Origin: a virus
Lineage: Duplodnaviria; Caudoviricetes
DNA length: 36,088 nt
Virus record (IMG/VR): IMGVR_UViG_3300032227_000453
Location: 1 to 36,088 of that record
Direction: 5' to 3' (one strand)
The position numbers were made by a program, and so were the translations under genes. Position 1 is the first letter of the stretch, and the number at the start of each line of letters is the position of its first letter. Below are positions 1-10,692 of the stretch, piece by piece. The notes below the pieces were generated by a model that was not told the DNA's origin, ran no database searches, and saw nothing but the letters and a program-made list of their open reading frames with translations.

Positions 1-96
1 GCCTACGGACTGCACAACACCAAAACTGGAAAGAGCGAAATATGGCAAGTCGTAAAGGACGGAAAGGACTGGATCAGCCCAATGGGCAAACTCTAA
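1..96 (+). CDS. 3' end of a gene truncated by the window edge (...AYGLHNTKTGKSEIWQVVKDGKDWISPMGKL*)
   Basis: Frame 1 is open from base 1 to TAA at 94-96; same strand as the late arm. Confidence 0.5.
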   Translation, partial: AYGLHNTKTGKSEIWQVVKDGKDWISPMGKL

Positions 97-305
97 GCGC
101 GTTGGACCGTGCGCTGGCGGAGTTCGCGGATTACGAGACGCTAAAGCCGGACGAGTTCACGGTTCAAATGGTTGCGGACAAGAACCCTGGCGTGCCAAGG
201 ACCACCATGGCGCATCGGTTTGACGAGCTAGTTCGGAAGGGCGTAATGGACAAGCGCAAGCTCATTGTGGGTGGCAAAGTCACCTGCGCCTACCGCTACG
301 TGTGA
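42..305 (+). CDS. Hypothetical protein, possibly winged-helix; last gene of the plus-strand arm
   Basis: 87 aa ORF converging on the minus-strand arm with a 10-bp overlap. Confidence 0.6.
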   Translation: MASRKGRKGLDQPNGQTLSALDRALAEFADYETLKPDEFTVQMVADKNPGVPRTTMAHRFDELVRKGVMDKRKLIVGGKVTCAYRYV

Positions 306-535
306 TCACCGTCGATGCGTAGCCGTCCCTCTTCCTGCGCCACCAGCAGCTCGAAGCCTGACGTGTAGCCGAAGCCGGGTTCCGGGCTGGCCGCGTCGAT
401 CTCACGTGCCTGCTCCAGCGTGTGGCGGGGGTACTTCTCCAGCAGGTCGAGGTCTTTCTGGTTGATCGCCGGGACTTGCGCTCGGCGCATCTTCGCCAGT
501 GCCTGCATGGCTAGCTGTTTCTCCTCCTCGGTCAT
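296..535 (-). CDS. Hypothetical protein
   Basis: 79 aa; ATGA overlap with the upstream gene at 532-535. Confidence 0.7.
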   Translation of the reverse strand: MTEEEKQLAMQALAKMRRAQVPAINQKDLDLLEKYPRHTLEQAREIDAASPEPGFGYTSGFELLVAQEEGRLRIDGDHT

Positions 536-753
536 GGCGTTTCGCTGAGTTTCGCAAGCTGCCGTTCCAGCCGCTCAATCTTGGCAAGCAAACCAGCCTC
601 CCGCTCGGCGGACATGCCCAGCAGGCGGGCTTGTTCTTCGCCTTCCTCGCGGGCTGCGGCAAGTTCACGTTCGAGCTGCTTTGATGTCTCATAGACCTTG
701 ACGATGCTTTCGTTCGCAGCCGCATCAGTCCTCGGTGTCGGTCGTAGTCTCAT
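532..753 (-). CDS. Coiled-coil 'TPRTD...LERELA' family protein, paralog 1
   Basis: Start set at MRLRPTPRTD (ATG 753), identical to the N-terminus of the 1092-1640 product; ATGA coupling at the 3' end. Confidence 0.7.
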   Translation of the reverse strand: MRLRPTPRTDAAANESIVKVYETSKQLERELAAAREEGEEQARLLGMSAEREAGLLAKIERLERQLAKLSETP

Positions 754-811
754 GGTTTCTTGGTGATCTGTGGTGTTCGCCAAAAACGACGAATTGTCGC
801 CGTATGCGCCC

Positions 812-1099
812 TCATTTCGACAGTCTTGGCGAGTTGTGAGCAATGTAGTTTTTCCATTCTCCAGCATCACGAATGGCTTCGGCATTTCGGATTATTTCCG
901 TTACTCCAGCACAATCTTGGCGCATGGCCCTGAGCTTTTCTAGGCAGTATTCCAGCGCGGAGTCGAGAGCAACCTCGCGCCGGGACCGCCAGTCCACGTC
1001 ATAGCATCCGCATTCGCATTCTCCATGTGCTGAGCAAGCGCAGCCATCGCCGGGGAGATGGCCAGCCACAACGCTAACAAGCCGTTCGATGTTACTCAT
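812..1099 (-). CDS. Hypothetical Cys-rich protein (CxC...CxCxC)
   Basis: 95 aa; overlaps the upstream stop; starts in an attC-like left half-site and ends through a degenerate att-like site. Confidence 0.65.
   Translation of the reverse strand: MSNIERLVSVVAGHLPGDGCACSAHGECECGCYDVDWRSRREVALDSALEYCLEKLRAMRQDCAGVTEIIRNAEAIRDAGEWKNYIAHNSPRLSK
1072..1095 (+). mobile_element. Orphan left half of an attC-like site
   Basis: CGCTAAC-AAGCC-GTTCGATG resembles R''-spacer-L'' of the intact sites; no matching right arm found. Confidence 0.4.
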
Positions 1100-1640
1100 T
1101 GGCTCCTCTTTCTATCGCATCGAGCGCATCAGCAAGAGCGCGGATGAACAAACCGGTGTGCGGCGCGTCCTTCCATAACGGGGTCTCCCATCGATCGACA
1201 ACCGCTTTAGCAGCCTCTGCCAGCTTGTTACGTTGTTCTTCGGTTTTTTTTCGCAACATTTCGGATGACAAAGCAAGGCGTTGCCACGAATCAAGTTGCT
1301 CTCGCGCTTCGTTACGTTCACGTTGCAGCTCCGCCATCCTATCGTTCAGGTGTTTGGCAGCGTCAGACAGAACCCGCCGCTCCTTCTCAGACTCCTCCAG
1401 CTTGCGTGCCAGCACGTCAGCCTTCAGCTTCCAGCTCATCGACTGGTTTGCCCAGCTCTCGCATTGCTCCTCCATCTCGGCGAGTTCACGTTCGAGCTGT
1501 CTAGCAAAAGTCGGCCATTCATACGTTGCGGGGGCTAGGCTACTTTCAAAGCCATACAAATCAAAGTGGCGAATGCCTTCTTCGTTTTGATCCGTCCTCG
1601 GTGTTGGTCGTAGTCTCATGGTTTTGAAGTTTTGATTCAC
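1092..1640 (-). CDS. Coiled-coil 'TPRTD...LERELA' family protein, paralog 2 (start GTG 1640 or ATG 1619)
   Basis: Shares N-terminus with 532-753 and a C-terminal module (VVDRWETPLWKDAPHTGLFIRALADALD) with 1887-2315. Confidence 0.75.
   Translation of the reverse strand: MNQNFKTMRLRPTPRTDQNEEGIRHFDLYGFESSLAPATYEWPTFARQLERELAEMEEQCESWANQSMSWKLKADVLARKLEESEKERRVLSDAAKHLNDRMAELQRERNEAREQLDSWQRLALSSEMLRKKTEEQRNKLAEAAKAVVDRWETPLWKDAPHTGLFIRALADALDAIERGANE
1119..1196. repeat. 78-bp perfect direct repeat, copy 1
   Basis: Identical to 1974-2051 by manual alignment. Confidence 0.9.
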
Positions 1641-1673
1641 CCGATCTTTGGCGAGTAATCTTGGATGTTAGCT
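1626..1673 (+). mobile_element. Array-head recombination site (attI-position, atypical attC-like), array 1
   Basis: R box GTTAGCT at 1667-1673; 32/35 nt identical to 4223-4257; short GATTCAC/GTAATC stem; no AAC-containing R''. Confidence 0.65.
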
Positions 1674-1877
1674 TGGAATTTCAATGTATGCGATTCCGTC
1701 ACATTTTTCGCAAATATATCTTTCTGCCGTGTCAGCATCGGCATTACATGGATTGCCATCTTCGTCGTATGCTTGGTATTCAATTCCATTGCTGTCGCAA
1801 GCCGGGCATTTGCGGAATCTTACTTCTCCGCATATTACCTGTCTTAGCCATTCGTTTGAGCATTCTGTGTATTTCAT
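1668..1877 (-). CDS. Cassette K1 protein, small putative Zn-binding protein (two CxxC)
   Basis: CPAC...CEKC; TAA stop lies in the R box at 1668-1670. Confidence 0.75.
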   Translation of the reverse strand: MKYTECSNEWLRQVICGEVRFRKCPACDSNGIEYQAYDEDGNPCNADADTAERYICEKCDGIAYIEIPS

Positions 1878-1965
1878 AAAAGACAGCTAACAAGACGCGC
1901 CATCCAACGGCGTGGGTGTCTCTAGTTGATTTGGTTGTCCTGCGCCACCGTGGATGCGCTTTGCG
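1668..1965 (+). mobile_element. Integron-type gene cassette K1 (298 bp) with inverted gene
   Basis: Begins G|TTAGCT; own R'' is AGCTAAC (exact reverse complement); ends with attC; visibly AT-richer than flanks. Confidence 0.85.
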
Positions 1966-1971
1966 TTCGGC
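1885..1971 (+). mobile_element. attC: attC site (87 bp)
   Basis: R'' AGCTAAC, spacer AAGAC, L'' GCG[C]CATC, C[A]ACGG ... CCGTG, L' GATGCGC, spacer TTTGC, R' GTTCGGC; canonical extrahelical C and A on the top strand. Confidence 0.9.
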
Positions 1972-2315
1972 GAATCGAGCGCATCAGCAAGAGCGCGGAT
2001 GAACAAACCGGTGTGCGGCGCGTCCTTCCATAACGGGGTCTCCCATCGATCAACCACCGCCCTAGCAGCTTCGGCCAGCTGGTCCCGCTGCTCCCGTGCC
2101 TCGGCTAGCCGCTCGATTTCGTCTAGCGATTCAAGCAGTCGCCCTTCTGCCACTGTTTTCCATTCGTCGCGGTCTTTTATCGCATCGGCGAGCTCGCGTT
2201 CAAGCTGGCGGTAAACATCCTCATGCACGACGCTGCAAGGTCGGCTGGAAATCGTGTCCACGCGGTCAATCGGCATCGCTGCCTCGTCAGTCCTCGGTGT
2301 GGGGGTGTCTTTCAT
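1887..2315 (-). CDS. 'TPRTD...LERELA' family protein, paralog 3; C-terminus encoded by attC
   Basis: 142 aa; reads through the whole attC and stops at TAG inside R''. Confidence 0.75.
   Translation of the reverse strand: MKDTPTPRTDEAAMPIDRVDTISSRPCSVVHEDVYRQLERELADAIKDRDEWKTVAEGRLLESLDEIERLAEAREQRDQLAEAARAVVDRWETPLWKDAPHTGLFIRALADALDSPNAKRIHGGAGQPNQLETPTPLDGASC
1974..2051. repeat. 78-bp perfect direct repeat, copy 2
   Basis: Identical to 1119-1196. Confidence 0.9.
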
Positions 2316-2698
2316 ACAAGCTCCTCCGGTAGTTCGTCAGCTTCGATGCGGATCATGGACGCCATTAGTTCTGGAGCCGTGTTGTAGGAATCAACCCAGC
2401 TTCCTCCCCAAACATAGCCGACATCGACCACGTTGTCGCGCACGCGCCAGTAAGTGGTCTTGGATTTGTTCGTGTAGAACTCAAACTCCCGCAGGTCTTC
2501 AGCGGGTTCCTCCTCATCCATCCAGAACGTGGACGGGCTGCTGCATGACGAGATGCCGACGCACTTGAGAATCTCGATGTGGTCACCAGGGTTGCTCGCA
2601 GCCAGCTCCTCGGCAGCTTCTTGCGCTCCCTTAAGGGTGGCGTAGCGCGTCTCGTATTCGAGATCGGACGTGAATTGGACGTAGTATGACGGCTTCAT
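2312..2698 (-). CDS. Hypothetical protein
   Basis: 128 aa; ATGA overlaps at both ends. Confidence 0.75.
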   Translation of the reverse strand: MKPSYYVQFTSDLEYETRYATLKGAQEAAEELAASNPGDHIEILKCVGISSCSSPSTFWMDEEEPAEDLREFEFYTNKSKTTYWRVRDNVVDVGYVWGGSWVDSYNTAPELMASMIRIEADELPEELV

Positions 2699-2913
2699 GG
2701 TTGTCCCTCCTTCTTCCAGACCATGATCTCCAGCGTCTCATCGAAGCCGATAAACGTCTTGCAGCCATTGTGGTCGTAGCCTTCCGGGTTCCTCACTCCC
2801 TTGACCCACAGCCCGTCTTCGCCGATGTCGAGGATCTCGTAGGACACCCACTCCGACCCGTCATCCCATGCGCTGGTCTTCCAAAATACTAGGATTCTAT
2901 CTCCAATTTTCAT
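2695..2913 (-). CDS. Hypothetical protein
   Basis: 72 aa; fits the operon tiling. Confidence 0.7.
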   Translation of the reverse strand: MKIGDRILVFWKTSAWDDGSEWVSYEILDIGEDGLWVKGVRNPEGYDHNGCKTFIGFDETLEIMVWKKEGQP

Positions 2914-2917
2914 AGCT

Positions 2918-3220
2918 TCAGATTGTTTGTCGTAGATCTCGGTAAATTCTGTTCACTGATTTGTTGCCCTTGAGCATCTGGCGGCGTCTCCAGTTCTTGA
3001 GCGAGTTCAGGACCAGTCCGAACTGCAGCTCGACCATCGCGAGACTCGCGCCGTTTGGCCTTGCCTTCTCGTAAGTCTGGTTCGCTTTCTCCATCAGCGC
3101 GTCAACCTCTGGCCGACCGCGCCCGGGTGCGATGTTCGTCTTGCGTTCCGGCTTCGGTGCGGATCTCGGGATCTTCGCGGCAGCCTGCCGGGCTAGCTCT
3201 AGTTCTCGGGGAGTGATCAC
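2918..3220 (-). CDS. Hypothetical basic protein, possible HTH
   Basis: GTG at 3220 overlaps the upstream TGA (GTGA); helix-turn-helix-like C-terminal half. Confidence 0.6.
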   Translation of the reverse strand: MITPRELELARQAAAKIPRSAPKPERKTNIAPGRGRPEVDALMEKANQTYEKARPNGASLAMVELQFGLVLNSLKNWRRRQMLKGNKSVNRIYRDLRQTI

Positions 3221-3372
3221 TCCAGTTCGTTGTCCCATTCGATGAGCCCGATGAGGATGGCCAGTGCTGCCCCTAGCGCGAACCAGATGGCAAGCTGGGC
3301 GTCCCCTGTTGCGGCGGCTACGGCTGCGGCTACGACGAGCCATCCGCCCGCCCCTAAGATGATGAGTTTCAT
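3217..3372 (-). CDS. Small two-TM membrane protein
   Basis: MKLIILGAGGWLVVAAAV...LAIWFALGAALAILIGLI; two hydrophobic stretches. Confidence 0.65.
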   Translation of the reverse strand: MKLIILGAGGWLVVAAAVAAATGDAQLAIWFALGAALAILIGLIEWDNELE

Positions 3373-3379
3373 GGCGTGT

Positions 3380-3610
3380 TCAGTTCGATTGATTGGTTTC
3401 CTCATAATCCGGCTCGACTGTAAAGCCGCTTTTGAGTTCATGGTGAAAAATGTAGGACGCTAGGGCGCGGTCGCTTTCCTCTTGGAGCCGGCTGCATCCG
3501 CCCTGACAAATCAGCGGACTCTCCACGATGAACACGGCCTCGACTCGGTGCCCTCCGATTAAGACCCACGCGTTTACCTTGATCCGGCGTTTCTTGCTTT
3601 TCTTTTTCAT
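3380..3610 (-). CDS. Hypothetical protein
   Basis: ATG at 3610 overlaps the stop of the DnaC-like gene. Confidence 0.6.
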   Translation of the reverse strand: MKKKSKKRRIKVNAWVLIGGHRVEAVFIVESPLICQGGCSRLQEESDRALASYIFHHELKSGFTVEPDYEETNQSN

Positions 3611-4227
3611 AGGCCTGACTGCTTTGCTTTCCTGAATGAGTCCCACTCGAACGCCAGCCCGCACCCGTTCTCCCTGATGCGGTCAAGGACAGCAGGTGAT
3701 AGTGACGCCGCGAGCTGCTTCCGTGGGTAATTGCTAATGATGATCGTCGGGCGTTCATGCTGGTAACGGGCATCGATGATGGAGGTGAGCTTGCTGTTCT
3801 CGAACTCCGTCTCAGCTCGTTCTTGGATTTCATCGATCACCAGGAGCGCGGCGTCAACGTAATTCTCCACGATTTCCTTCTCCGACTTCGGCGAGGCGTG
3901 GTGGTAGGACGACTTAATGTCAGAGAATAGGTTCACCGCCGTGGTGTAGAGCATCGGACGCTTGACCGTGGATGCCGTCCAGCCTACCCCGCCAGCCGAT
4001 GCGTTAGGGCGCGATGGCTTGTGGTTCTTTGCCAGCTCCCACGCCATCCTCGTCTTGCCGGTGCCATGCCCGCCGTGCATGATCACAATGCCACCAGAAT
4101 CGATCGCCGCGAGGGCTTGGGCATAGTTGGCGTGCCAGCCCGCCCCCTCGGCTGCAGGGGCGTTCTCGTAGCGTTTCGGGAATCCTTTGAGCGCGTTCAT
4201 GTTTCTGATTGGCGAACGATTGTTCAC
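3607..4227 (-). CDS. DnaC/IstB-like AAA+ ATPase (helicase loader-like); start GTG 4227 or ATG 4200
   Basis: Walker A GGHGTGKT, Walker B LLVIDE, 'IIDARY...PTIIISN...DRI' typical of DnaC/IstB. Confidence 0.88.
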   Translation of the reverse strand: MNNRSPIRNMNALKGFPKRYENAPAAEGAGWHANYAQALAAIDSGGIVIMHGGHGTGKTRMAWELAKNHKPSRPNASAGGVGWTASTVKRPMLYTTAVNLFSDIKSSYHHASPKSEKEIVENYVDAALLVIDEIQERAETEFENSKLTSIIDARYQHERPTIIISNYPRKQLAASLSPAVLDRIRENGCGLAFEWDSFRKAKQSGL

Positions 4228-4260
4228 CCGACCTTTGGCGAGTGAACTTGGATGTTATGC
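4211..4260 (+). mobile_element. Array-head recombination site (attI-position, atypical attC-like), array 2
   Basis: GGCGAAC...GTTCAC...GTGAAC-TTGGAT-GTTATGC; near-identical to 1636-1670; lacks the canonical extrahelical base. Confidence 0.7.
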
Positions 4261-4574
4261 TGGGAATTTTCCACCTCGACGTGCCCCGTGATAAATCCAC
4301 GTTTGGGCATTCTGGCGGAGTGCATGACCGAAAGAATGTCGATACAGGTGTCCACGTGGTCGCCGCGTTTCAGAGGCCCCATGGTGAAGTCTGCGAAGTC
4401 ATCCCACCCCGCTTCCCCGAGGTGTCCGGCAGCGAGCACGCGGTAGTTTCCGACATCGCCACCGCCGCGCATGTCTCCGGCTGTTCCGTCGTTTTCGATC
4501 TCCACTTGCAGGAGTTTGCGTTTTCGGGATTCGTCCCCCCGTGGGATCAGTTCAATGGTAATTCTAAGAGGCAT
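4224..4574 (-). CDS. Cassette K2 hypothetical protein
   Basis: 116 aa; ATG lies in R'' (GCATAAC); TGA overlaps the GTG of the DnaC-like gene inside the array-head site. Confidence 0.75.
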   Translation of the reverse strand: MPLRITIELIPRGDESRKRKLLQVEIENDGTAGDMRGGGDVGNYRVLAAGHLGEAGWDDFADFTMGPLKRGDHVDTCIDILSVMHSARMPKRGFITGHVEVENSQHNIQVHSPKVG

Positions 4575-4667
4575 AACAAGTCGTGGGTGAGCAACCGGGA
4601 TCAGCGGTTGAGTTCATTTTCGTGTTCTGGCTTTTGCACCGCTGATCCCGGTGCCACCACTATTGCG
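4255..4667 (+). mobile_element. Integron-type gene cassette K2 (413 bp) with inverted gene
   Basis: Begins G|TTATGC; own R'' is GCATAAC (exact reverse complement). Confidence 0.85.
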
Positions 4668-4673
4668 TTCTGC
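4571..4673 (+). mobile_element. attC: attC site (103 bp)
   Basis: R'' GCATAAC, AAGTC, GTG[G]GTG[A]GC[A]ACCGGGATCAGCGGT ... ACCGCTGATCCCGGT GC CACCAC, TATTGC, R' GTTCTGC; 15-bp perfect stem, three extrahelical bases. Confidence 0.88.
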
Positions 4674-4882
4674 TCAAATTTTTCCCAATGGTCTTTGTGG
4701 GTTTCGATCCATAGGGAGTGTTCGGGATTTGACCTCGGCGCGAATATCTCCATTCGTCCATCTTTCTTGCTGCGTCGAGCTTCAAGAACTCCAAGAGCAC
4801 CTGATTCCCATTCGGAAGACCGCAGAACAAAGCATCGCATCCGACGCCAAAAAGCATTCAGTTTGAATCGAAGTGTTTTCAT
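4601..4882 (-). CDS. Cassette K3 hypothetical protein
   Basis: 93 aa; starts inside its own attC and stops inside the neighbouring attC. Confidence 0.7.
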   Translation of the reverse strand: MKTLRFKLNAFWRRMRCFVLRSSEWESGALGVLEARRSKKDGRMEIFAPRSNPEHSLWIETHKDHWEKFEQNAIVVAPGSAVQKPEHENELNR

Positions 4883-4903
4883 GGCGCGGATGGATTTTGA
4901 TCG
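4668..4903 (+). mobile_element. Integron-type gene cassette K3 (236 bp) with inverted gene
   Basis: Begins G|TTCTGC; own R'' is GCAGAAC (exact reverse complement). Confidence 0.85.
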
Positions 4904-4909
4904 TTAGCC
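4822..4909 (+). mobile_element. attC: attC site (88 bp)
   Basis: R'' GCAGAAC, AAAGC, ATC[G]CATCCG[A]CGCCA ... TGGCG CGGATG GAT, TTTGATC, R' GTTAGCC; right spacer (7 nt) slightly long. Confidence 0.83.
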
Positions 4910-5154
4910 GAAAGAAATTCCAGCCATTCAGTGATTTTCACGGAGTCTGAGACGTGTTGCCCGCAGTCGAGAATATAGACAAACCTCATGTTTTCTGAGT
5001 CCCATGAGACTTGCGTGAGAATCCAGGCTTTAGGGCAGAACCTATCCACGAATCCGCCTTTTTCGTCGTGCGCGATGCTTCCCCACGAATCAAGAGCGGC
5101 TAACAATGCGTGCGAGGCAACGCCGACAACATCGTTCTTCGATTCGGAATTCAT
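4879..5154 (-). CDS. Cassette K4 hypothetical protein
   Basis: 91 aa; ATGA overlaps at both ends, each inside an attC. Confidence 0.75.
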   Translation of the reverse strand: MNSESKNDVVGVASHALLAALDSWGSIAHDEKGGFVDRFCPKAWILTQVSWDSENMRFVYILDCGQHVSDSVKITEWLEFLSANDQNPSAP

Positions 5155-5178
5155 TCGCGGCGTGCCTCCACTTGATCG
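4904..5178 (+). mobile_element. Integron-type gene cassette K4 (275 bp) with inverted gene
   Basis: Begins G|TTAGCCG; own R'' is CGGCTAAC (8-nt exact reverse complement). Confidence 0.85.
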
Positions 5179-5184
5179 TTCTTT
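5098..5184 (+). mobile_element. attC: attC site (87 bp)
   Basis: R'' GGCTAAC, AATGC, L'' GTG[C]GAGG, CA[A]CGCCG ... CGGCGTG, L' CCTCCAC, TTGATC, R' GTTCTTT; canonical extrahelical C and A. Confidence 0.9.
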
Positions 5185-5369
5185 CCAACAACCCTGCGGA
5201 CCACCTGCCAGACGGCGCGGATGACACCCCTACGCCACCATGGTGCCACGTCTCGCGTGGATCGGTATTCGACACCCCATGCTGGGGTGTAGCGTTTCGG
5301 CTCCTCGGGGCAGTGGCGGCAGGGGATGTGCCGACCGCACTTGCAGATGTATTCGTTCATGGTTTCCAA
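5151..5369 (-). CDS. Hypothetical protein (CxC...CxxC); C-terminus encoded by attC
   Basis: 72 aa; ends ...KNDQVEARRE* with ATGA overlap inside attC. Confidence 0.65.
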   Translation of the reverse strand: METMNEYICKCGRHIPCRHCPEEPKRYTPAWGVEYRSTRDVAPWWRRGVIRAVWQVVRRVVGKNDQVEARRE

Positions 5370-5704
5370 AGATTGAGGGTTCGCAGAAAGGCTTCGGCTC
5401 GTTCGGCGGCGGTTGCGCTAGCTACAGCAAAGTATCCCCATCCGTTTGGGGCGAATCCCTTTTCGTCGCGCTCCGGGCCGATGGTCATTCTTGCTAGCAT
5501 CTCGCCGTATTTGTATTCGAGTTTGGGGTTTGCAATAAAAGCAATTTCAGCTTCGTTCATCGCGTTTAGGTCGTTGAGGTAATCTGGAATCTCATGCATT
5601 CCGTCGGCTGAAAGCTTTGCGCCATTTGGGAAATGCCATTCGCCATCAGATTGATAAAACCCGCAGGCCTGCGCAATGGCGATTCGTTGTTCTTGCTCGT
5701 TCAT
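5357..5704 (-). CDS. Hypothetical phage protein
   Basis: 115 aa; 'IAIAQACG...IPDYLNDLNAM...ATAAERAEAFL' pattern common in phage early regions. Confidence 0.75.
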   Translation of the reverse strand: MNEQEQRIAIAQACGFYQSDGEWHFPNGAKLSADGMHEIPDYLNDLNAMNEAEIAFIANPKLEYKYGEMLARMTIGPERDEKGFAPNGWGYFAVASATAAERAEAFLRTLNLWKP

Positions 5705-5711
5705 GGCTTAT

Positions 5712-5752
5712 TGATTTACCAGTCCTTCAGCGAGTGAACCGGAGTGTTCATT
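5712..5752 (+). mobile_element. Third array-head-type site, apparently empty
   Basis: 26/37 nt ungapped identity to 4220-4256, including GCGAGTGAAC and GTT at the same register; intergenic. Confidence 0.5.
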
Positions 5753-6026
5753 TTGAGTCGAGGATTTGTGAGATCGTGTATCCTTTCTGGAACTGGGTCA
5801 TCATGGAGTAGTCCACCGGAAGCGTCGGCTCGATCTTCTCCGACTCCTGCGTGCGGATGAGCACCTCCAGCGCGGAGCTAGGCGTCCGCCCCTCACGCTT
5901 GGCGAGGCGCATGATTCGCTGGTAGGTCTCCTGTTGCAAGGTAAAATTCACCGCAACCTTCTGCTCCCAGGGCTTGTGGCGTGGCCTTCCCGCCGTGATC
6001 TTGTAACCGTTGTCTCGCGCTCTCAT
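5748..6026 (-). CDS. Ribbon-helix-helix-like DNA-binding protein
   Basis: GRP...VAVNFTLQQETYQRIMRLAKREGRTPSSALEVLI; ATG 6026 overlaps the upstream TGA. Confidence 0.7.
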   Translation of the reverse strand: MRARDNGYKITAGRPRHKPWEQKVAVNFTLQQETYQRIMRLAKREGRTPSSALEVLIRTQESEKIEPTLPVDYSMMTQFQKGYTISQILDSK

Positions 6027-6220
6027 GACAGGTGGTATTGGGCGAAGGCTTTCCCGTTGTGTCGCACCGTGGTGGTGACGATGTTCATCCCCGCTTGCCT
6101 CAGCTCGGCGATGCGGGCGGCGAGTCTCATGCAGCCCCACTTGTTGAGGGCTTGCAGAGCAGTGAGCTTGTAGCCGCGTGCCAGCCAAGCCTCGATCTTC
6201 TGTGTGGTGTTCTTTTTCAT
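6023..6220 (-). CDS. Small winged helix-turn-helix protein
   Basis: LTALQALNKWGCMRLAARIAELRQAGMNI...AQYHL phage wHTH pattern. Confidence 0.75.
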   Translation of the reverse strand: MKKNTTQKIEAWLARGYKLTALQALNKWGCMRLAARIAELRQAGMNIVTTTVRHNGKAFAQYHLS

Positions 6221-6224
6221 GGCG

Positions 6225-6455
6225 TCAGTCTCCTTGTTCGTCGTCATCGAATGAGAACATCTCGCTGATGGCAGCCATGACCGCCATGTGGACCTGATGC
6301 TCGATCTCGTCCATCGACGGGTCTTCCGTGTGCTTGAATGCTCGGGACACCCCGTAGCGACATCCTGATTCGATTGCGTGGCTTAGGATTACGTATGTTT
6401 TTGCTTTCATGTTGTAACTCATTTGCATTTTCAGTCGGGGAGAATCGTTCTTCAT
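6225..6455 (-). CDS. Hypothetical protein
   Basis: ATG 6455 overlaps the stop of the RuvC-like gene; acidic C-terminus. Confidence 0.6.
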   Translation of the reverse strand: MKNDSPRLKMQMSYNMKAKTYVILSHAIESGCRYGVSRAFKHTEDPSMDEIEHQVHMAVMAAISEMFSFDDDEQGD

Positions 6456-6901
6456 GGCGCGTGGGTGCGTCTTCCATACTCGGCGATCAGGAGGCTGTCG
6501 GCTGTTGCGTGTGTCACCTTGATGTCGGGGAACAGTTCCTGCGCGAGCTTCTTGGTGATGTTTTTGTCGCCCTTCGTCATGCAGCCCATGGCTCGCTGCC
6601 ATACCTGCGGGCGGACGCGCTCGAACGGGATGCCCGCTGCGGTCAGTGCCATCTCTAGGTTGCCGTAGCCCCGGCCAAACGTGAAGGCGGAGACCACACC
6701 CTGCTGCGGGCTGCTGGCGACTTGCTCAAGGTAGGCCTTCGCCGTCGGGTGCGTGTCCCGGTAGCATCGCGCCAGCCCGTGGAGCAGCTCCCAGAGGTCG
6801 CCGATGGTGTCGGGCATCTTCTCCGCGCATGCTCGCCCGTTTTCGTCGATCCATGCGATGCCGCCGTTTACGCCAGGATCGACGCCGATGATGGTTTTCA
6901 T
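6452..6901 (-). CDS. RuvC-like Holliday junction resolvase
   Basis: IIGVDPGVNGGIA, YLEQV, FTFGRGYG, VRPQVWQ, ADSLLIA motifs. Confidence 0.88.
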   Translation of the reverse strand: MKTIIGVDPGVNGGIAWIDENGRACAEKMPDTIGDLWELLHGLARCYRDTHPTAKAYLEQVASSPQQGVVSAFTFGRGYGNLEMALTAAGIPFERVRPQVWQRAMGCMTKGDKNITKKLAQELFPDIKVTHATADSLLIAEYGRRTHAP

Positions 6902-7545
6902 GATTGTTGATTGGTTGGGAGTTTGCCGGGCTTCACGAACACAAGGAAGTAGGAATGAAAGATTCGCGCATGGCGTTGAGTTCCTTTTTGTGGTCCGGGC
7001 ATCCGGGATTTGGCGGGCAGGATGAAAAGGTCGAGAAGCCGGAAGCCTTCATGCTCTGCCCAGTTGCAGACGTTGACGTGGGTAGCGTGCATCCGGTGGT
7101 TGTGGATCACGTCTTGGCACTTGAAGACCAGCACGCCGCCGGGCTTCAGGACGCGCCATGCCTCAGAGAGCGTCCCTCGGTAGTGTTCCTCCAGTTCTTC
7201 GTATCGGTAGTATCCTCCGAACCGTGCCGTCATGGCCACCTTGCTGTTGTGGTCGCGTCCGTTCTTCACGTATGTCAGGAATGGCGGATCAAAGACCATA
7301 TTGCGAAGGCTGGCTGGACCGAGCGGGAGCATCTGGGAGTCAGCCTCGACCACGCCTTCATGCAATGGAGTGATGTCGAAGCAATATCGAGGACGCTCGC
7401 GCCCCTTCCAGAACGACCCGTTCCCGAATGTGGCATCGCACTCGAAGCCTCCCGGACAGTGTAGCCTCTCGATGGCTTTCAGGATTGCGTCATTGGTATC
7501 ATAGACGCTTCTCACGACGACATCGGTCTCCATTGTGGCGTTCAT
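6898..7545 (-). CDS. Amino (N6-A/N4-C) DNA methyltransferase-like protein
   Basis: DATFGNGSFW SAM-binding-like motif, VFDPPF catalytic motif, RVLKPGGVLVFK. Confidence 0.82.
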   Translation of the reverse strand: MNATMETDVVVRSVYDTNDAILKAIERLHCPGGFECDATFGNGSFWKGRERPRYCFDITPLHEGVVEADSQMLPLGPASLRNMVFDPPFLTYVKNGRDHNSKVAMTARFGGYYRYEELEEHYRGTLSEAWRVLKPGGVLVFKCQDVIHNHRMHATHVNVCNWAEHEGFRLLDLFILPAKSRMPGPQKGTQRHARIFHSYFLVFVKPGKLPTNQQS

Positions 7546-7745
7546 TGGTTCCACAGCTTCATCTTGAGTTTCTTCGCCAGCCCCACCACCGCATCCAGCT
7601 CATCCTCGCCGGTCCAGTTGTGCTGGGTCTCGCTCTTGTAGGCGATCCACCGCCCGTCCTTGGATTGCATCGTGTGGATGCCCTTCTCCTTCATCCATTT
7701 CAGGCGTGGGGAAAGGTCTTCAGGTAGTTCGTCGAATAGGTTCAT
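7542..7745 (-). CDS. Hypothetical protein
   Basis: 67 aa; ATGA overlaps. Confidence 0.7.
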   Translation of the reverse strand: MNLFDELPEDLSPRLKWMKEKGIHTMQSKDGRWIAYKSETQHNWTGEDELDAVVGLAKKLKMKLWNQ

Positions 7746-7948
7746 CGCAGGAGGTCTAGCTTAGGGCGTCCGACTTCAGGTCCGTGTGCGGTCTTGATGA
7801 TGCAGTGCTCAACGGTCTTCATGTCGTCAAGGACGCGCTGGAACATTCGTTGCTCCTTGGGCGAGTTGCCGTAGGGCAGGGTGAGTGACTCATAGCCTAG
7901 GCGCTTGGCTTCTTGGGCTGAGAGGACTGGCGGCGTGTAGTGTTTCAT
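7742..7948 (-). CDS. Hypothetical protein
   Basis: 68 aa; ATGA overlap. Confidence 0.7.
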   Translation of the reverse strand: MKHYTPPVLSAQEAKRLGYESLTLPYGNSPKEQRMFQRVLDDMKTVEHCIIKTAHGPEVGRPKLDLLR

Positions 7949-8016
7949 AGGAAAAGGCGCCCTGCTGCGATTCTCTGGGCGGGAGGATTGGTTACCGTCG
8001 CAGCTCGGTGGTTAGG

Positions 8017-8250
8017 TCAGAACGGGATCGTTCCATCGTCATCCTTGCCCTGCGCCCCATACGGCTTCGGCTCGTAGAACGAAATCCATCCGCTCCATTC
8101 CGGGGTAACAGGCACGCCTTCCAGCTTCAAGGACAGGTTGCCCTGATCGTTCTCGAAGACCGCGCCTACGGTGAGGTAGCGTTTCTTCTCGGTGCCGTCC
8201 TTAGTCGTGTATTTGCCCACGGTGGCAACTGCGTCGTATTTCTTTTTCAT
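8017..8250 (-). CDS. Small SSB-like protein
   Basis: Beta-rich 77 aa protein with acidic tail DDDGTIPF, located in the recombination module. Confidence 0.7.
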   Translation of the reverse strand: MKKKYDAVATVGKYTTKDGTEKKRYLTVGAVFENDQGNLSLKLEGVPVTPEWSGWISFYEPKPYGAQGKDDDGTIPF

Positions 8251-8252
8251 GG

Positions 8253-8606
8253 TCAATCTTTGATAAAGACTCCGTTCTCCATCTTGCCGGTGCGTCCTTT
8301 GATCTCGTCGTAGGCAGCTTGAAGGCAGTCCTCGAAGCGCAACCCAGCCATCTCGGCGGCGAGGATCAGCGTTACGGTGCAGTCGCCGATGCCGTCGATT
8401 AAGTCGATTTTCGATTCGTATTGCTTGCCCTTTCTGGAGAAGACAGACTGTCCTTGAGAATAAAGCACCGCAGCATCCCGCGTCTCGGTCAGTTCCTCCT
8501 GTGTTTTGGACAACTGGCCAAGCAGCGTGCCGCGTCCTTCGGGACCGGTGATGCCCTTGCTGACTCCCCATTCCCTTACTGCGTCGATTAGTTCTTGGAT
8601 GTTCAT
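8253..8606 (-). CDS. MazG-like nucleotide pyrophosphohydrolase
   Basis: QLSKTQEELTE...DGIGDCTVTLI...CLQAAYDEIKGRTGKMENGVFIK. Confidence 0.85.
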   Translation of the reverse strand: MNIQELIDAVREWGVSKGITGPEGRGTLLGQLSKTQEELTETRDAAVLYSQGQSVFSRKGKQYESKIDLIDGIGDCTVTLILAAEMAGLRFEDCLQAAYDEIKGRTGKMENGVFIKD

Positions 8607-8608
8607 GT

Positions 8609-9412
8609 TTACAGGTAAGCTGGTTTCTCGATGGTGATGATGCCTTCGTGCTGTTTAGGCCAGTGGTCGGTTGCGACGCATGCCTGCCATTGACCGAGCG
8701 CATTCATGTATCCAGCCCGGCCAAGGTCAATAAAATTCTCTGACAGCTCCACCCAGGCGGTCTCGAATGGCTCCTTCGTCTCGATGAAGCAGAACACGAA
8801 CCGCTTGCGGTTCTCCCCGCTGGCGGCGTTCCAGAGGTCGAGGTAAAGCGCAGCCTGCCAGTGATACCCACGGCTGGCAATCGTCCGCATGATCTCGTTT
8901 TGCGAGCCAATGCTGCCCGTGGTCTTGAGATCCACCAGCAGGTCCAGCCCGTCCGGCACGATGTCAATCATCCCCTTGATCTGGGTTGCGCCAATCTCCC
9001 CGAATGCTGCCACCTCGGAGTCATAGAGACCGGCGAAGCGTTGGGCATACTCCTCGGAGAAAATCTGCTCGCAGCAGGTAGCCGTTCGGATGTCATCGCT
9101 GGTGACGATCATTTTGCCCATCTCCCGCTGGTCATCCCGCCATTCCTGCGCTGCTTTTGTGCGGAAGTCGGCGAAGGGTGAGACGACCGCGATGGAATCG
9201 ACCGGGACGTTGGGTTCAAGGATGGCGGAGTGGATCAGCGTGCCGAGGTCCATTGCCTTGGTGACATCCTTGCCGGTGCTGTGCCGCCACCTGAAGGGCG
9301 ACTGGTGGAAGTCCCAGAGCAGTGACTTACTGACCGGTCCGTCAAGCTTGGCCGGGGTGGCTGTGCGCAGGTAATACGCCTTGCCAATGTTCTTTTCGAT
9401 GTGTGCTTTCAT
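8609..9412 (-). CDS. PD-(D/E)XK exonuclease, RecE/exonuclease VIII C-terminal-like
   Basis: GTLIHSAILEP, KGMIDIV, VDLKTT, YHWQAALY; adjacent to ERF. Confidence 0.85.
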   Translation of the reverse strand: MKAHIEKNIGKAYYLRTATPAKLDGPVSKSLLWDFHQSPFRWRHSTGKDVTKAMDLGTLIHSAILEPNVPVDSIAVVSPFADFRTKAAQEWRDDQREMGKMIVTSDDIRTATCCEQIFSEEYAQRFAGLYDSEVAAFGEIGATQIKGMIDIVPDGLDLLVDLKTTGSIGSQNEIMRTIASRGYHWQAALYLDLWNAASGENRKRFVFCFIETKEPFETAWVELSENFIDLGRAGYMNALGQWQACVATDHWPKQHEGIITIEKPAYL

Positions 9413-9420
9413 GGGTGCTT

Positions 9421-9996
9421 TCAGGCTTTGCGTTGCTTGGCGGCGAACGCCTTTTCGATGTGGGGGAGCTTGTCCGTGGTCAGGTCGGCGAGCTTAGCTG
9501 CCCCGTAGTGTTTCAGGAAGGCCGCTTCGTCGATGTTGAGGGCTTCCAGCGTGTCCTTGATGCCGATGGCCTGCTCCTCGCTGATTTTGGGGTATTCTGC
9601 GCGTTTCTGAGTGGTCGAGCTGTTGCCGTCGTCATCCTCCTGCGCGATCCCGGCGAAGGCTGCTAGGGCGTAGCGGCGAAGGTAGGTGGTCGCGGCGCCG
9701 ATGCCCTGCCCGTCTTGTTTAGCTGGGACGCATGAGATTTCACCGGAGATGTGGCCACCGCCGGAATGGCAGATGGCAGTCGTGACCGATACCTTCACCC
9801 CGTCAAATGACGGAGATTGAATGACACTCAGACCGTTGGCGGCGAGGACCGGACGGACGGTGTTGAGGACCTCCGCCAGATCCGCGTATTTGCTGCGGAA
9901 GTGCGGGTTAACGCTGGCTTTCGTTGCGTTCTCGACCTCACCTTGCATCTTGGCAAGTGCGGCGAGTAGTTCTGGGGTGCTGTGTGTCAGGTTCAT
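9421..9996 (-). CDS. erf: ERF-family single-strand annealing protein
   Basis: NPHFRSKYADL...QGIGAATTYLRRYALAAFAGIAQEDDDG signature. Confidence 0.92.
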   Translation of the reverse strand: MNLTHSTPELLAALAKMQGEVENATKASVNPHFRSKYADLAEVLNTVRPVLAANGLSVIQSPSFDGVKVSVTTAICHSGGGHISGEISCVPAKQDGQGIGAATTYLRRYALAAFAGIAQEDDDGNSSTTQKRAEYPKISEEQAIGIKDTLEALNIDEAAFLKHYGAAKLADLTTDKLPHIEKAFAAKQRKA

Positions 9997-10388
9997 TGCG
10001 TGTTGCTTGTTTCTGTTTGTGGATTAAGCGGGCTGAGAATGCCGTGAAGTTCTGCGAAGAATTGGATATTGAGGTATTGGCTAGGTCGAGCTTTTTTTTG
10101 ACGGTAAAGGTTGATTACGGCGGCCACCTGCTGCCGGACGGACCCATCCCCGCCATAGGAGCGGCTGAAGATTCGCTGTCTGGCATACATGGCTACCCCG
10201 TGGCTGATTCGGCCCACCACGCGGGCGGAATCGATCAGGCTGTGATGCTCAGACCAGAGGGCCATGACGATTTGCCGACCGTGAGAGGGCAGCGCGTGAC
10301 GGCTCGGGCCGAGGATCAGGTGCTTGTCGATGCCGAGCACCTGCGCGGTGCTCTCAAGCAGCGTGTCGAAGTCGTCAATGATGAGCAT
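9993..10388 (-). CDS. DnaA C-terminal (domain IV)-like DNA-binding protein
   Basis: LGIDKHLILGPSR...RQIVMAL...SL...VGRISHG..MYARQRI resembles the DnaA domain IV pattern. Confidence 0.6.
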   Translation of the reverse strand: MLIIDDFDTLLESTAQVLGIDKHLILGPSRHALPSHGRQIVMALWSEHHSLIDSARVVGRISHGVAMYARQRIFSRSYGGDGSVRQQVAAVINLYRQKKARPSQYLNIQFFAELHGILSPLNPQTETSNTQ

Positions 10389-10692
10389 TTCGTGCCTGCT
10401 TTCTAAGGTAACGGAACAGGGTAGCCACCGAGGTCTGGGTAACGGTCAAGCATGGCTCGTATGAGCTGAGGACGGTCTCGACGCCTGCCCACTTGAAGCC
10501 ATAGATTGAAAAGCCGGTGTGGATACGCTTGCCGGGTAGGAAGTGCGTCTTGCCTGCCTCGGTCCGCCTGACGTGCCAGATCGGCTTGTAGGGCGGCTTA
10601 GGCTCATGCGGCGGGTCGTTGTCCACGCTGGGGCAGTATTCGCCGGGGAGTTCGGCGATTTCCACGGCTGGCTCATAAAGGTCGTATGTCAT
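10375..10692 (-). CDS. Hypothetical protein
   Basis: 105 aa; fits the tiling. Confidence 0.65.
   Translation of the reverse strand: MTYDLYEPAVEIAELPGEYCPSVDNDPPHEPKPPYKPIWHVRRTEAGKTHFLPGKRIHTGFSIYGFKWAGVETVLSSYEPCLTVTQTSVATLFRYLRKQARNAHH

What the first reader, a model, noticed from the sequence alone, without database searches (positions are those of the whole stretch)
1626..5752. A conserved non-canonical site heads each array, a candidate phage attI-equivalent, with a possible empty copy
Seen: the leftmost site of both arrays is nearly the same 35-mer (1636-1670 vs 4223-4257, 32/35 identical; TTCACCCGAyCTTTGGCGAGTrAwCTTGGAT-GTTA), whereas the four true attC sites differ from each other. 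These sites have only a short stem and lack the canonical extrahelical-base pattern. A third copy at 5712-5752 (26/37 identical) has no cassette after it, and the RHH gene's TGA lies in its R box. Known: attI occupies this position on the top strand, and IntI can also use degenerate secondary sites. Inference: these are phage-maintained landing pads at gene junctions; an alternative is decayed minimal attC sites.
Basis: partly seen in the sequence, partly recalled or inferred. Interest (0 to 1): 0.8.

Follow-up and report, generated by a model that had tools for sequence, protein, structure and literature searches.

The report
Portable cassette entry site in phage
A short DNA motif present three times in this freshwater-type phage marks the exact base where integron-style gene cassettes differ between strains, so it likely serves as the entry point for a host enzyme, but it comes and goes between strains rather than being a fixed landing pad.

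Summary
The repeat is real: 32/35 between sites 1 and 2 and 26/37 for site 3. The arrays are true attC-bounded cassettes with reversed genes, and no integrase was found in the record.

In an independent freshwater study, site 2 stays constant while at least two other stretches follow its G|TT.

Three corrections:
- Site 1 does have the canonical bulged base.
- Site 3 is absent from the empty allele. It arrived as the right end of a 391-bp gene-plus-site unit bounded by GTT.
- The motif is not fixed. Strains lacking site 2 and site 3 exist, and probably site 1 too. Related phages head their arrays with other sites; one family (B, 50-56 bp, T-G|TT, variable right side, one empty copy) is probably homologous.

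Best reading (0.5): a portable, attC-shaped but attI-acting entry site, likely used in trans by a host IntI. Rival: a shortened or decayed attC (0.3). No enzyme test was possible. This is a new variant of a known kind (phage CALINs, attG sites, delta-attI cassettes).

The parts
1623..1673 (+). Head site 1 (family A). Conserved core 1636-1670, crossover core GTT at 1667-1669. Short L-arm hairpin with a bulged G on the bottom strand; the R'' position reads AAG, not AAC
1668..1965 (+). Cassette a (298 bp). 69-aa ORF 1668-1877 on the minus strand; closed by attC_a 1885-1971
   Evidence: 7/7 R'/R'' complement; 1575-2003 identical in 2 P2 runs, 1575-1931 in a third
4211..4260 (+). Head site 2 (family A), 50 bp from the AAC box to the GTT box; GTT at 4254-4256. 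Just upstream (on the minus strand) of the DnaC/IstB-like ATPase gene
   Evidence: different DNA right of 4256 in study P2
4255..4667 (+). Cassette b (413 bp). 116-aa minus-strand ORF 4224-4574 whose last 10 codons and stop lie in site 2; attC_b 4571-4673
   Evidence: found behind another attC-like end, with both ends at the GTT cores, in run X2
4668..4903 (+). Cassette c (236 bp). Minus-strand ORF 4601-4882 that starts and stops inside attC loops; attC_c 4822-4909
   Evidence: replaced by other DNA in P2 alleles
4904..5178 (+). Cassette d (275 bp), the distal one. Minus-strand ORF 4879-5154; attC_d 5098-5184
   Evidence: kept in one P2 allele with 2 differences over 4897-5206
5355..5745 (+). 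391-bp polymorphic unit: 115-aa minus-strand phage-type gene (5357-5704) plus site 3, with the same 6 letters (starting GTT) on both sides
   Evidence: joint 5354->5746 in runs X2, X3, X4, X5 (P2) and X7 (P3); outgroup L001 also lacks it; 1362 homologous proteins
5702..5752 (+). Site 3 (diverged family A copy), GTT at 5746-5748. No cassette to its right, no AAC at the R'' position, weak fold

Best explanation
The motif is the point at which integron-type cassettes differ between strains at site 2, and it likely works as a portable attI-like entry site that a host integron integrase would use in trans. Shown: the cassettes behind sites 1 and 2 begin exactly at G|TT. Site 2 is constant while its right side varies. 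No tyrosine recombinase was found in this record or in 5 related records. Site 3 entered the genome together with the gene to its left. Inferred: a circular cassette's folded attC bottom strand recombines with the double-stranded head at G|TT, so new cassettes go in next to the head. Because the operon runs leftwards and the cassette genes are reversed, no Pc promoter is needed. In all three sites the minus-strand frame through AAC meets a stop after 10 codons, 11-23 nt before the next phage ATG, so an inserted gene would be terminated and coupled without breaking the operon. The site probably descends from a shortened attC-type hairpin (about 50 bp, probably homologous to family B heads of related phages). 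It spreads to new gene junctions as the right end of gene-plus-site units, in the manner of delta-attI cassettes or by phage annealing recombination, and so could seed new arrays.
For: Three different right sides at one G|TT: the window's cassette b, an allele with about 420 bp followed by cassette d (joint 4256->4897), and an allele joining 4256->5177. Both joints are in 4 of 4 P2 runs laid. This implies repeated crossover at the same base. The distal cassette d is shared while proximal ones differ. Heads differ as a class from cassette attC: 14 of 14 cassette attC have AAC followed by AA and C before GTT, whereas 8 of 8 heads have T before GTT and none has AAC-AA. Heads are 50-56 bp, below the 57-141 bp attC range stated in PMC12901181. 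Sites 1 and 3 lack the AAC R'' box needed for a folded attC. Family B heads occur in 3 related phage records with three different right sides: two cassettes with a 7/7 R'' match, and one native phage gene directly, i.e. empty. They lie at two different gene junctions. B matches the A-only profile at 10/16, a score reached by 60 of 14,382 GTT contexts. A joint A+B pattern hit only these 3 records in IMG/VR. No PF00589 match in the window or in 5 related records, including complete G403, which has an array.
Against: No recombination assay was done and the host is unidentified. Right-side variation was seen only for site 2; site 1 plus cassette a is identical in P2. The layout is attC-like (AAC-5-L''...L'-6/7-GTT, bulged G in site 1, bottom strand folding better in sites 1 and 2). 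It is unlike six intI-proximal junctions of Verrucomicrobiota, which are short A-rich runs; the best identity to family A anywhere in 31 intI loci was 22/35. T before GTT is not diagnostic of attI (3 of those 6). Site 3 closes an inserted unit, as an attC would. Other relatives head arrays with unrelated sites (family C, 6/16). A P3 strain has neither hairpin nor array at the site 2 junction. The A-B likeness is modest (about p 0.01 over three head types tried).
Confidence: 0.5

Rival explanations
1. The three copies are members of one short attC family, partly decayed. Each is the closing site of an old unit to its left, recombines as a folded single strand, and heads the array only because it is the leftmost attC.
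For: Site 3 closes a 391-bp unit bounded by GTT cores. The four bases at its R'' position predict a left junction that lies exactly 391 bp upstream. Site 1 has the bulged G. Sites 1 and 2 fold better on the bottom strand (-2.2 vs -0.5 and -7.7 vs -6.2 kcal/mol). Site 2 and the B heads keep an AAC box. The differences between sites 1 and 2 keep the L arm paired.
Against: No AAC in sites 1 and 3, and the sites are shorter than the stated attC range. They break the AAC-AA and C|GTT rule seen in 14 of 14 cassette attC. The predicted left junctions for sites 1, 2 and B lie 1.5-6.5 kb away. The 391-bp match is confounded because both ends are Met-Asn gene starts; the same 7-mer occurs 3 times upstream. 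Fold z-scores are 0.0 for site 1 and 0.1 for site 3.
Confidence: 0.3
2. The motif is a gene-junction element (stop plus spacer, perhaps an operator dyad) spread among junctions by phage annealing recombination. Its GTT is only an opportunistic secondary (attG-type) target.
For: The same stop register occurs in all three sites. The phage encodes an ERF annealing protein. The probable site-1-less allele is a replacement without GTT at the joint. GTTCAT occurs 13 times in 1-10,400. Relatives use unrelated heads.
Against: Repeated use of one G|TT in P2 and in family B. The attG right-hand motif CRGM is absent in 6 of 6 flanks tested. No sigma-70 promoter-like site was found in 1400-6100 and no terminator-like hit falls on the motif.
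Confidence: 0.17
3. The repeat is chance or an assembly artefact.
For: No copy was found in IMG/VR or GTDB, and the only two JGI hits are chance.
Against: Shuffle test. Independent study P2 holds sites 1 and 2. Site 3 rests on the source sample X1 alone.
Confidence: 0.03

Closest known systems
Integron attI sites (attI1, attI2)
   Same: Sits at the head of an attC-bounded array; crossover at G|TT; left side constant and right side variable (site 2, family B).
   Different: No adjacent intI was found and the genes are reversed. There are several copies per genome, and they are polymorphic for presence. It has a hairpin left arm and G+C-rich sequence, unlike the A-rich minimal attI consensus given in PMC12901181.
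CALINs in phage genomes (Qi et al. 2023, PMC9892861; parts 1, 3 and 4 of 7 read)
   Same: attC arrays in phages without an integrase; 5 of 6 phage attC sites tested were recombined by IntI1.
   Different: In the parts read, that paper describes an attI only for a Shewanella prophage with intI, and notes GTTRRRY motifs at CALIN boundaries. It does not describe a phage-specific repeated entry site or strain-level cassette swapping.
attG secondary sites (bioRxiv 10.1101/2022.09.11.507474; methods part and passages read)
   Same: Non-attI, non-attC targets with a GWT core that take cassettes, some as hotspots.
   Different: attG sites are unrelated 18-nt genomic sequences with a right-hand CRGM motif, which is absent here. 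This site is a repeated 35-50 bp family conserved on the left.
Delta-attI-type gene cassettes (PMC12901181; abstract, part 1 of the introduction and one results section read)
   Same: A gene followed by an attI-derived site instead of attC, moving as a unit; matches the 391-bp gene-plus-site-3 unit.
   Different: Known from class 1 and 2 integrons, mostly with 14-18 nt attI fragments. Here the whole motif travels, in a phage, with a reversed phage gene.

Membership tests
Integron attI | Lies at the head of a cassette array, with crossover at G|TT | tested here: met
   (sites 1 and 2)
Integron attI | Left side constant, right side variable among relatives | tested here: met
   site 2 only; not seen for site 1
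Integron attI | Adjacent to an intI gene | tested here: not met
   no PF00589 match in the record (record rated 50% complete) or in 5 related records, 2 of them complete
Integron attI | Stays in place in the empty allele | tested here: not met
   cassette-free alleles lack site 2's hairpin (X7) and site 3; met only by the family B copy in L053
Integron attI | Recombines as double-stranded DNA with IntI | not testable with these tools
   needs a strand-delivery assay
attC | R'' box with AAC complementary to R' | tested here: inconclusive
   present in site 2, absent in sites 1 and 3
attC | Paired L''/L' with an extrahelical base on the bottom strand | tested here: inconclusive
   predicted for site 1; first bulge absent in site 2; site 3 does not fold so
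attC | Length 57-141 bp (PMC12901181) | tested here: not met
   50-51 bp
attC | Closes a mobile unit on its right end | tested here: inconclusive
   met for site 3; no nearby left boundary for sites 1 and 2
attG | GWT core | tested here: met
   GTT in all three sites
attG | CRGM motif at +6 to +9 of hotspots | tested here: not met
   0 of 6 flanks
CALIN | [quoted passage not shown] | tested here: met
   own structural scans, not IntegronFinder

The most novel reading that the evidence does not exclude
This phage clade has evolved its own cassette entry sites from shortened attC hairpins. The sites travel with genes to new junctions, seed fresh arrays and supply the stop codon that keeps the operon intact, which gives a multi-site, integrase-free phage integron run by the host's IntI.
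Probability: 0.35. Interest if true: 0.8.

Novelty: new variant of a known kind. Interest (0 to 1): 0.55.

Why it matters
Phage attC arrays are in print, but how cassettes get into a genome with no attI and no integrase is open. Here there is a short, nameable site with strain-level evidence that cassettes are swapped at it, and it can go straight into standard IntI assays. If it acts like attI yet derives from attC, it bears on the origin of attI sites and on how phages borrow host integrons to shuffle accessory genes.

Tried and rejected
- Exact-pattern searches for family A: 0 hits in IMG/VR with three patterns and 0 in GTDB. The 2 JGI metagenome hits both lie inside unrelated coding sequence and were rejected as chance. 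These scans may leave out very near relatives.
- Family A as a host attI: 0 of 401 genomes of the Verrucomicrobiota-labelled phylum sample at 3 mismatches. The phylum was my guess; the capsid search gave 1 of 401 at 30% identity, so the host is not established.
- Family B pattern in GTDB: 19 hits, none with the left arm or a nearby integrase motif; rejected as chance. Viral hit L051 has only the right part and was left out of the count.
- Fuzzy scan of 45 related loci, 555,047 bases: none at 23/35 or better. Three further loci and four related records (G404 only its first 15 kb) reached at most 21/35.
- No Rfam match at E<=1; no match in annotated phage records for 1600-2000.
- Joint 4234->4172 in two P2 runs was not resolved.
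- Literature searches returned no paper whose title or abstract start describes a repeated phage-specific entry site. The library lacks most subscription papers, and no supplements were read.
Full report
Setting. The window is a 36,088-base virus record rated 50% complete. It has a terminase, an SU10-type capsid, ERF, DUF3799 and a DnaC/IstB-like ATPase, and no tyrosine recombinase match. The finding lies in a leftward-running operon of small genes.

Observation. Sites 1 and 2 are 32/35 identical. Site 3 is 25/35 to site 2 and ends in the same GTT register. No shuffle of 100 reached 25. Four attC sites (1885-1971, 4571-4673, 4822-4909, 5098-5184) are unlike each other. At 4 of 4 junctions the 7-mer at G|TT is the exact reverse complement of the next R'', so cassettes a, b, c and d are genuine and begin at sites 1 and 2. 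Their genes run against the attC direction. One correction: the predicted bottom-strand fold of site 1 has a bulged G, so it does not lack the extrahelical base. What sites 1 and 3 lack is the AAC box; site 2 has it.

Population test. Assembled contigs of other samples were laid on the region. In study P2, all 4 runs laid show two joints leaving site 2 at 4256, the last T of GTT. One goes through about 420 other bases (my count from record coordinates) into cassette d. The other goes through an unknown stretch to 5177. With the window's allele that makes three right sides at one crossover base, and the distal cassette is the shared one. In run X2, cassette b sits behind another attC-like end, with its boundaries at the GTT cores. 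Five runs of two studies skip 5355-5745, that is the 115-aa gene together with site 3, with the same six letters on both sides. The more distant phage L001 lacks this unit too, so it is likely an insertion in this lineage. Site 3 is therefore empty on its right but arrived with the gene on its left. For site 1, P2 holds the identical site-plus-cassette allele and also a joint 1623->1110 through seven letters. Because 1116-1238 duplicates 1971-2093, I read this as an allele without site 1; that reading is an inference. No variation right of site 1 was seen.

Relatives. Family A was not found in IMG/VR, in GTDB or in 45 related loci, and the two JGI hits are chance. Chained attC arrays with reversed genes occur in related records G403, G405 and G406, but in only 2 of the 43 loci fetched with the RusA-like gene (that label is mine by eye). 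Their heads differ. Family B (L050, L052, L053) is a 50-56 bp AAC...GTT hairpin with three different right sides, one of them a native phage gene with no cassette, and it occurs at two different gene junctions. It scores 10/16 against an A-only profile, in the top 0.4% of 14,382 GTT contexts. A joint pattern retrieved only these three records. I take homology with A as likely but not proven. Family C (L001, L035) has an AAT box five bases before GTT and is unrelated; the L035 head rests on a 6/7 match. Across all, 14 of 14 cassette attC have AAC-AA and C before GTT, while 8 of 8 heads have T before GTT. The 14 were picked from scans that required only AAC, GTT and pairing. None of five related records, two of them complete, has a tyrosine recombinase match.

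Host comparison. Guessing a Verrucomicrobiota host, I found an integron integrase over the family cut-off in 116 of 401 genomes. I read 31 intI loci. Six show an intI-proximal junction, A-rich by eye and unlike family A. Family A was in 0 of 401 genomes. The host itself is not established.

Mechanism. Shown: boundaries, polymorphism, no integrase found, and a common stop register (the frame through AAC stops after 10 codons, 11-23 nt before the next ATG). Inferred from established integron biology: a host IntI joins a cassette's folded attC to the head at G|TT. I favour a portable, attC-shaped site acting like attI (0.5), because one base is reused and two of three copies cannot form an attC R box. 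A short or decayed attC family (0.3) explains site 3 and the hairpin as well. An opportunistic target within a junction element spread by annealing recombination gets 0.17.

Known systems. Phage CALINs with IntI1-active attC (PMC9892861; parts 1, 3, 4 of 7). attG sites (bioRxiv 10.1101/2022.09.11.507474; one methods part and passages). Delta-attI cassettes (PMC12901181; abstract, part of the introduction, one results section). CALIN definition (PMC4889954; passages). It works like attI at site 2 but fails membership (no adjacent intI, not retained in empty alleles). It also fails attC length and the attG right motif. Six literature searches showed no description of such a phage site in their listings; supplements were not read. 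Earlier AI notes of this scan describe similar docking sites in other phages. They are unchecked leads: they suggest the phenomenon recurs, and I do not count them as support.

Verdict. Observation partly confirmed, interpretation partly supported. New variant of a known kind; interest 0.55.

Noticed in passing
window 4601-5360: Cassette genes start and stop inside attC loops with overlapping stop/start codons. In attC b, c, d and site 2 the gene enters through the AAC triplet in frame, so C-terminal tails come from whichever site lies to the left.
   Followed up: partly
L001 reverse complement 5440-5475 and L035 reverse complement 6320-6350: A third head type (family C), with an AAT box five bases before GTT, is shared by two phages. 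It has the most attI-like geometry seen here.
   Followed up: partly
window 4571-4580: In run X3 a low-depth contig leaves the window at 4580 into letters that match an attC of L035, suggesting cassette b's gene paired with a different attC.
   Followed up: no
window 4159-4234: Two P2 runs have an 821-base contig with this stretch at one end and 4172-4204 again at the other, suggesting a roughly 700-base insert with a duplicated dnaC start.
   Followed up: no
window 8594-8609: The start of the 117-aa gene carries the same last 10 bases as sites 1 and 2. Relative L001 has a two-cassette array ending at the GTT at 8607. May be chance.
   Followed up: no
window 532-2315: Paralogous small genes share 5' ends (724-758 vs 1590-1624) and 3' ends (1116-1238 vs 1971-2093), and P2 strains are rearranged through these repeats.
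   Followed up: partly
L002 reverse complement 2630-2680; L053 900-830: About 50 bases left of family B heads are conserved between two phages (91% over 100 bases including the site) and look like a promoter region by eye.
   Followed up: no
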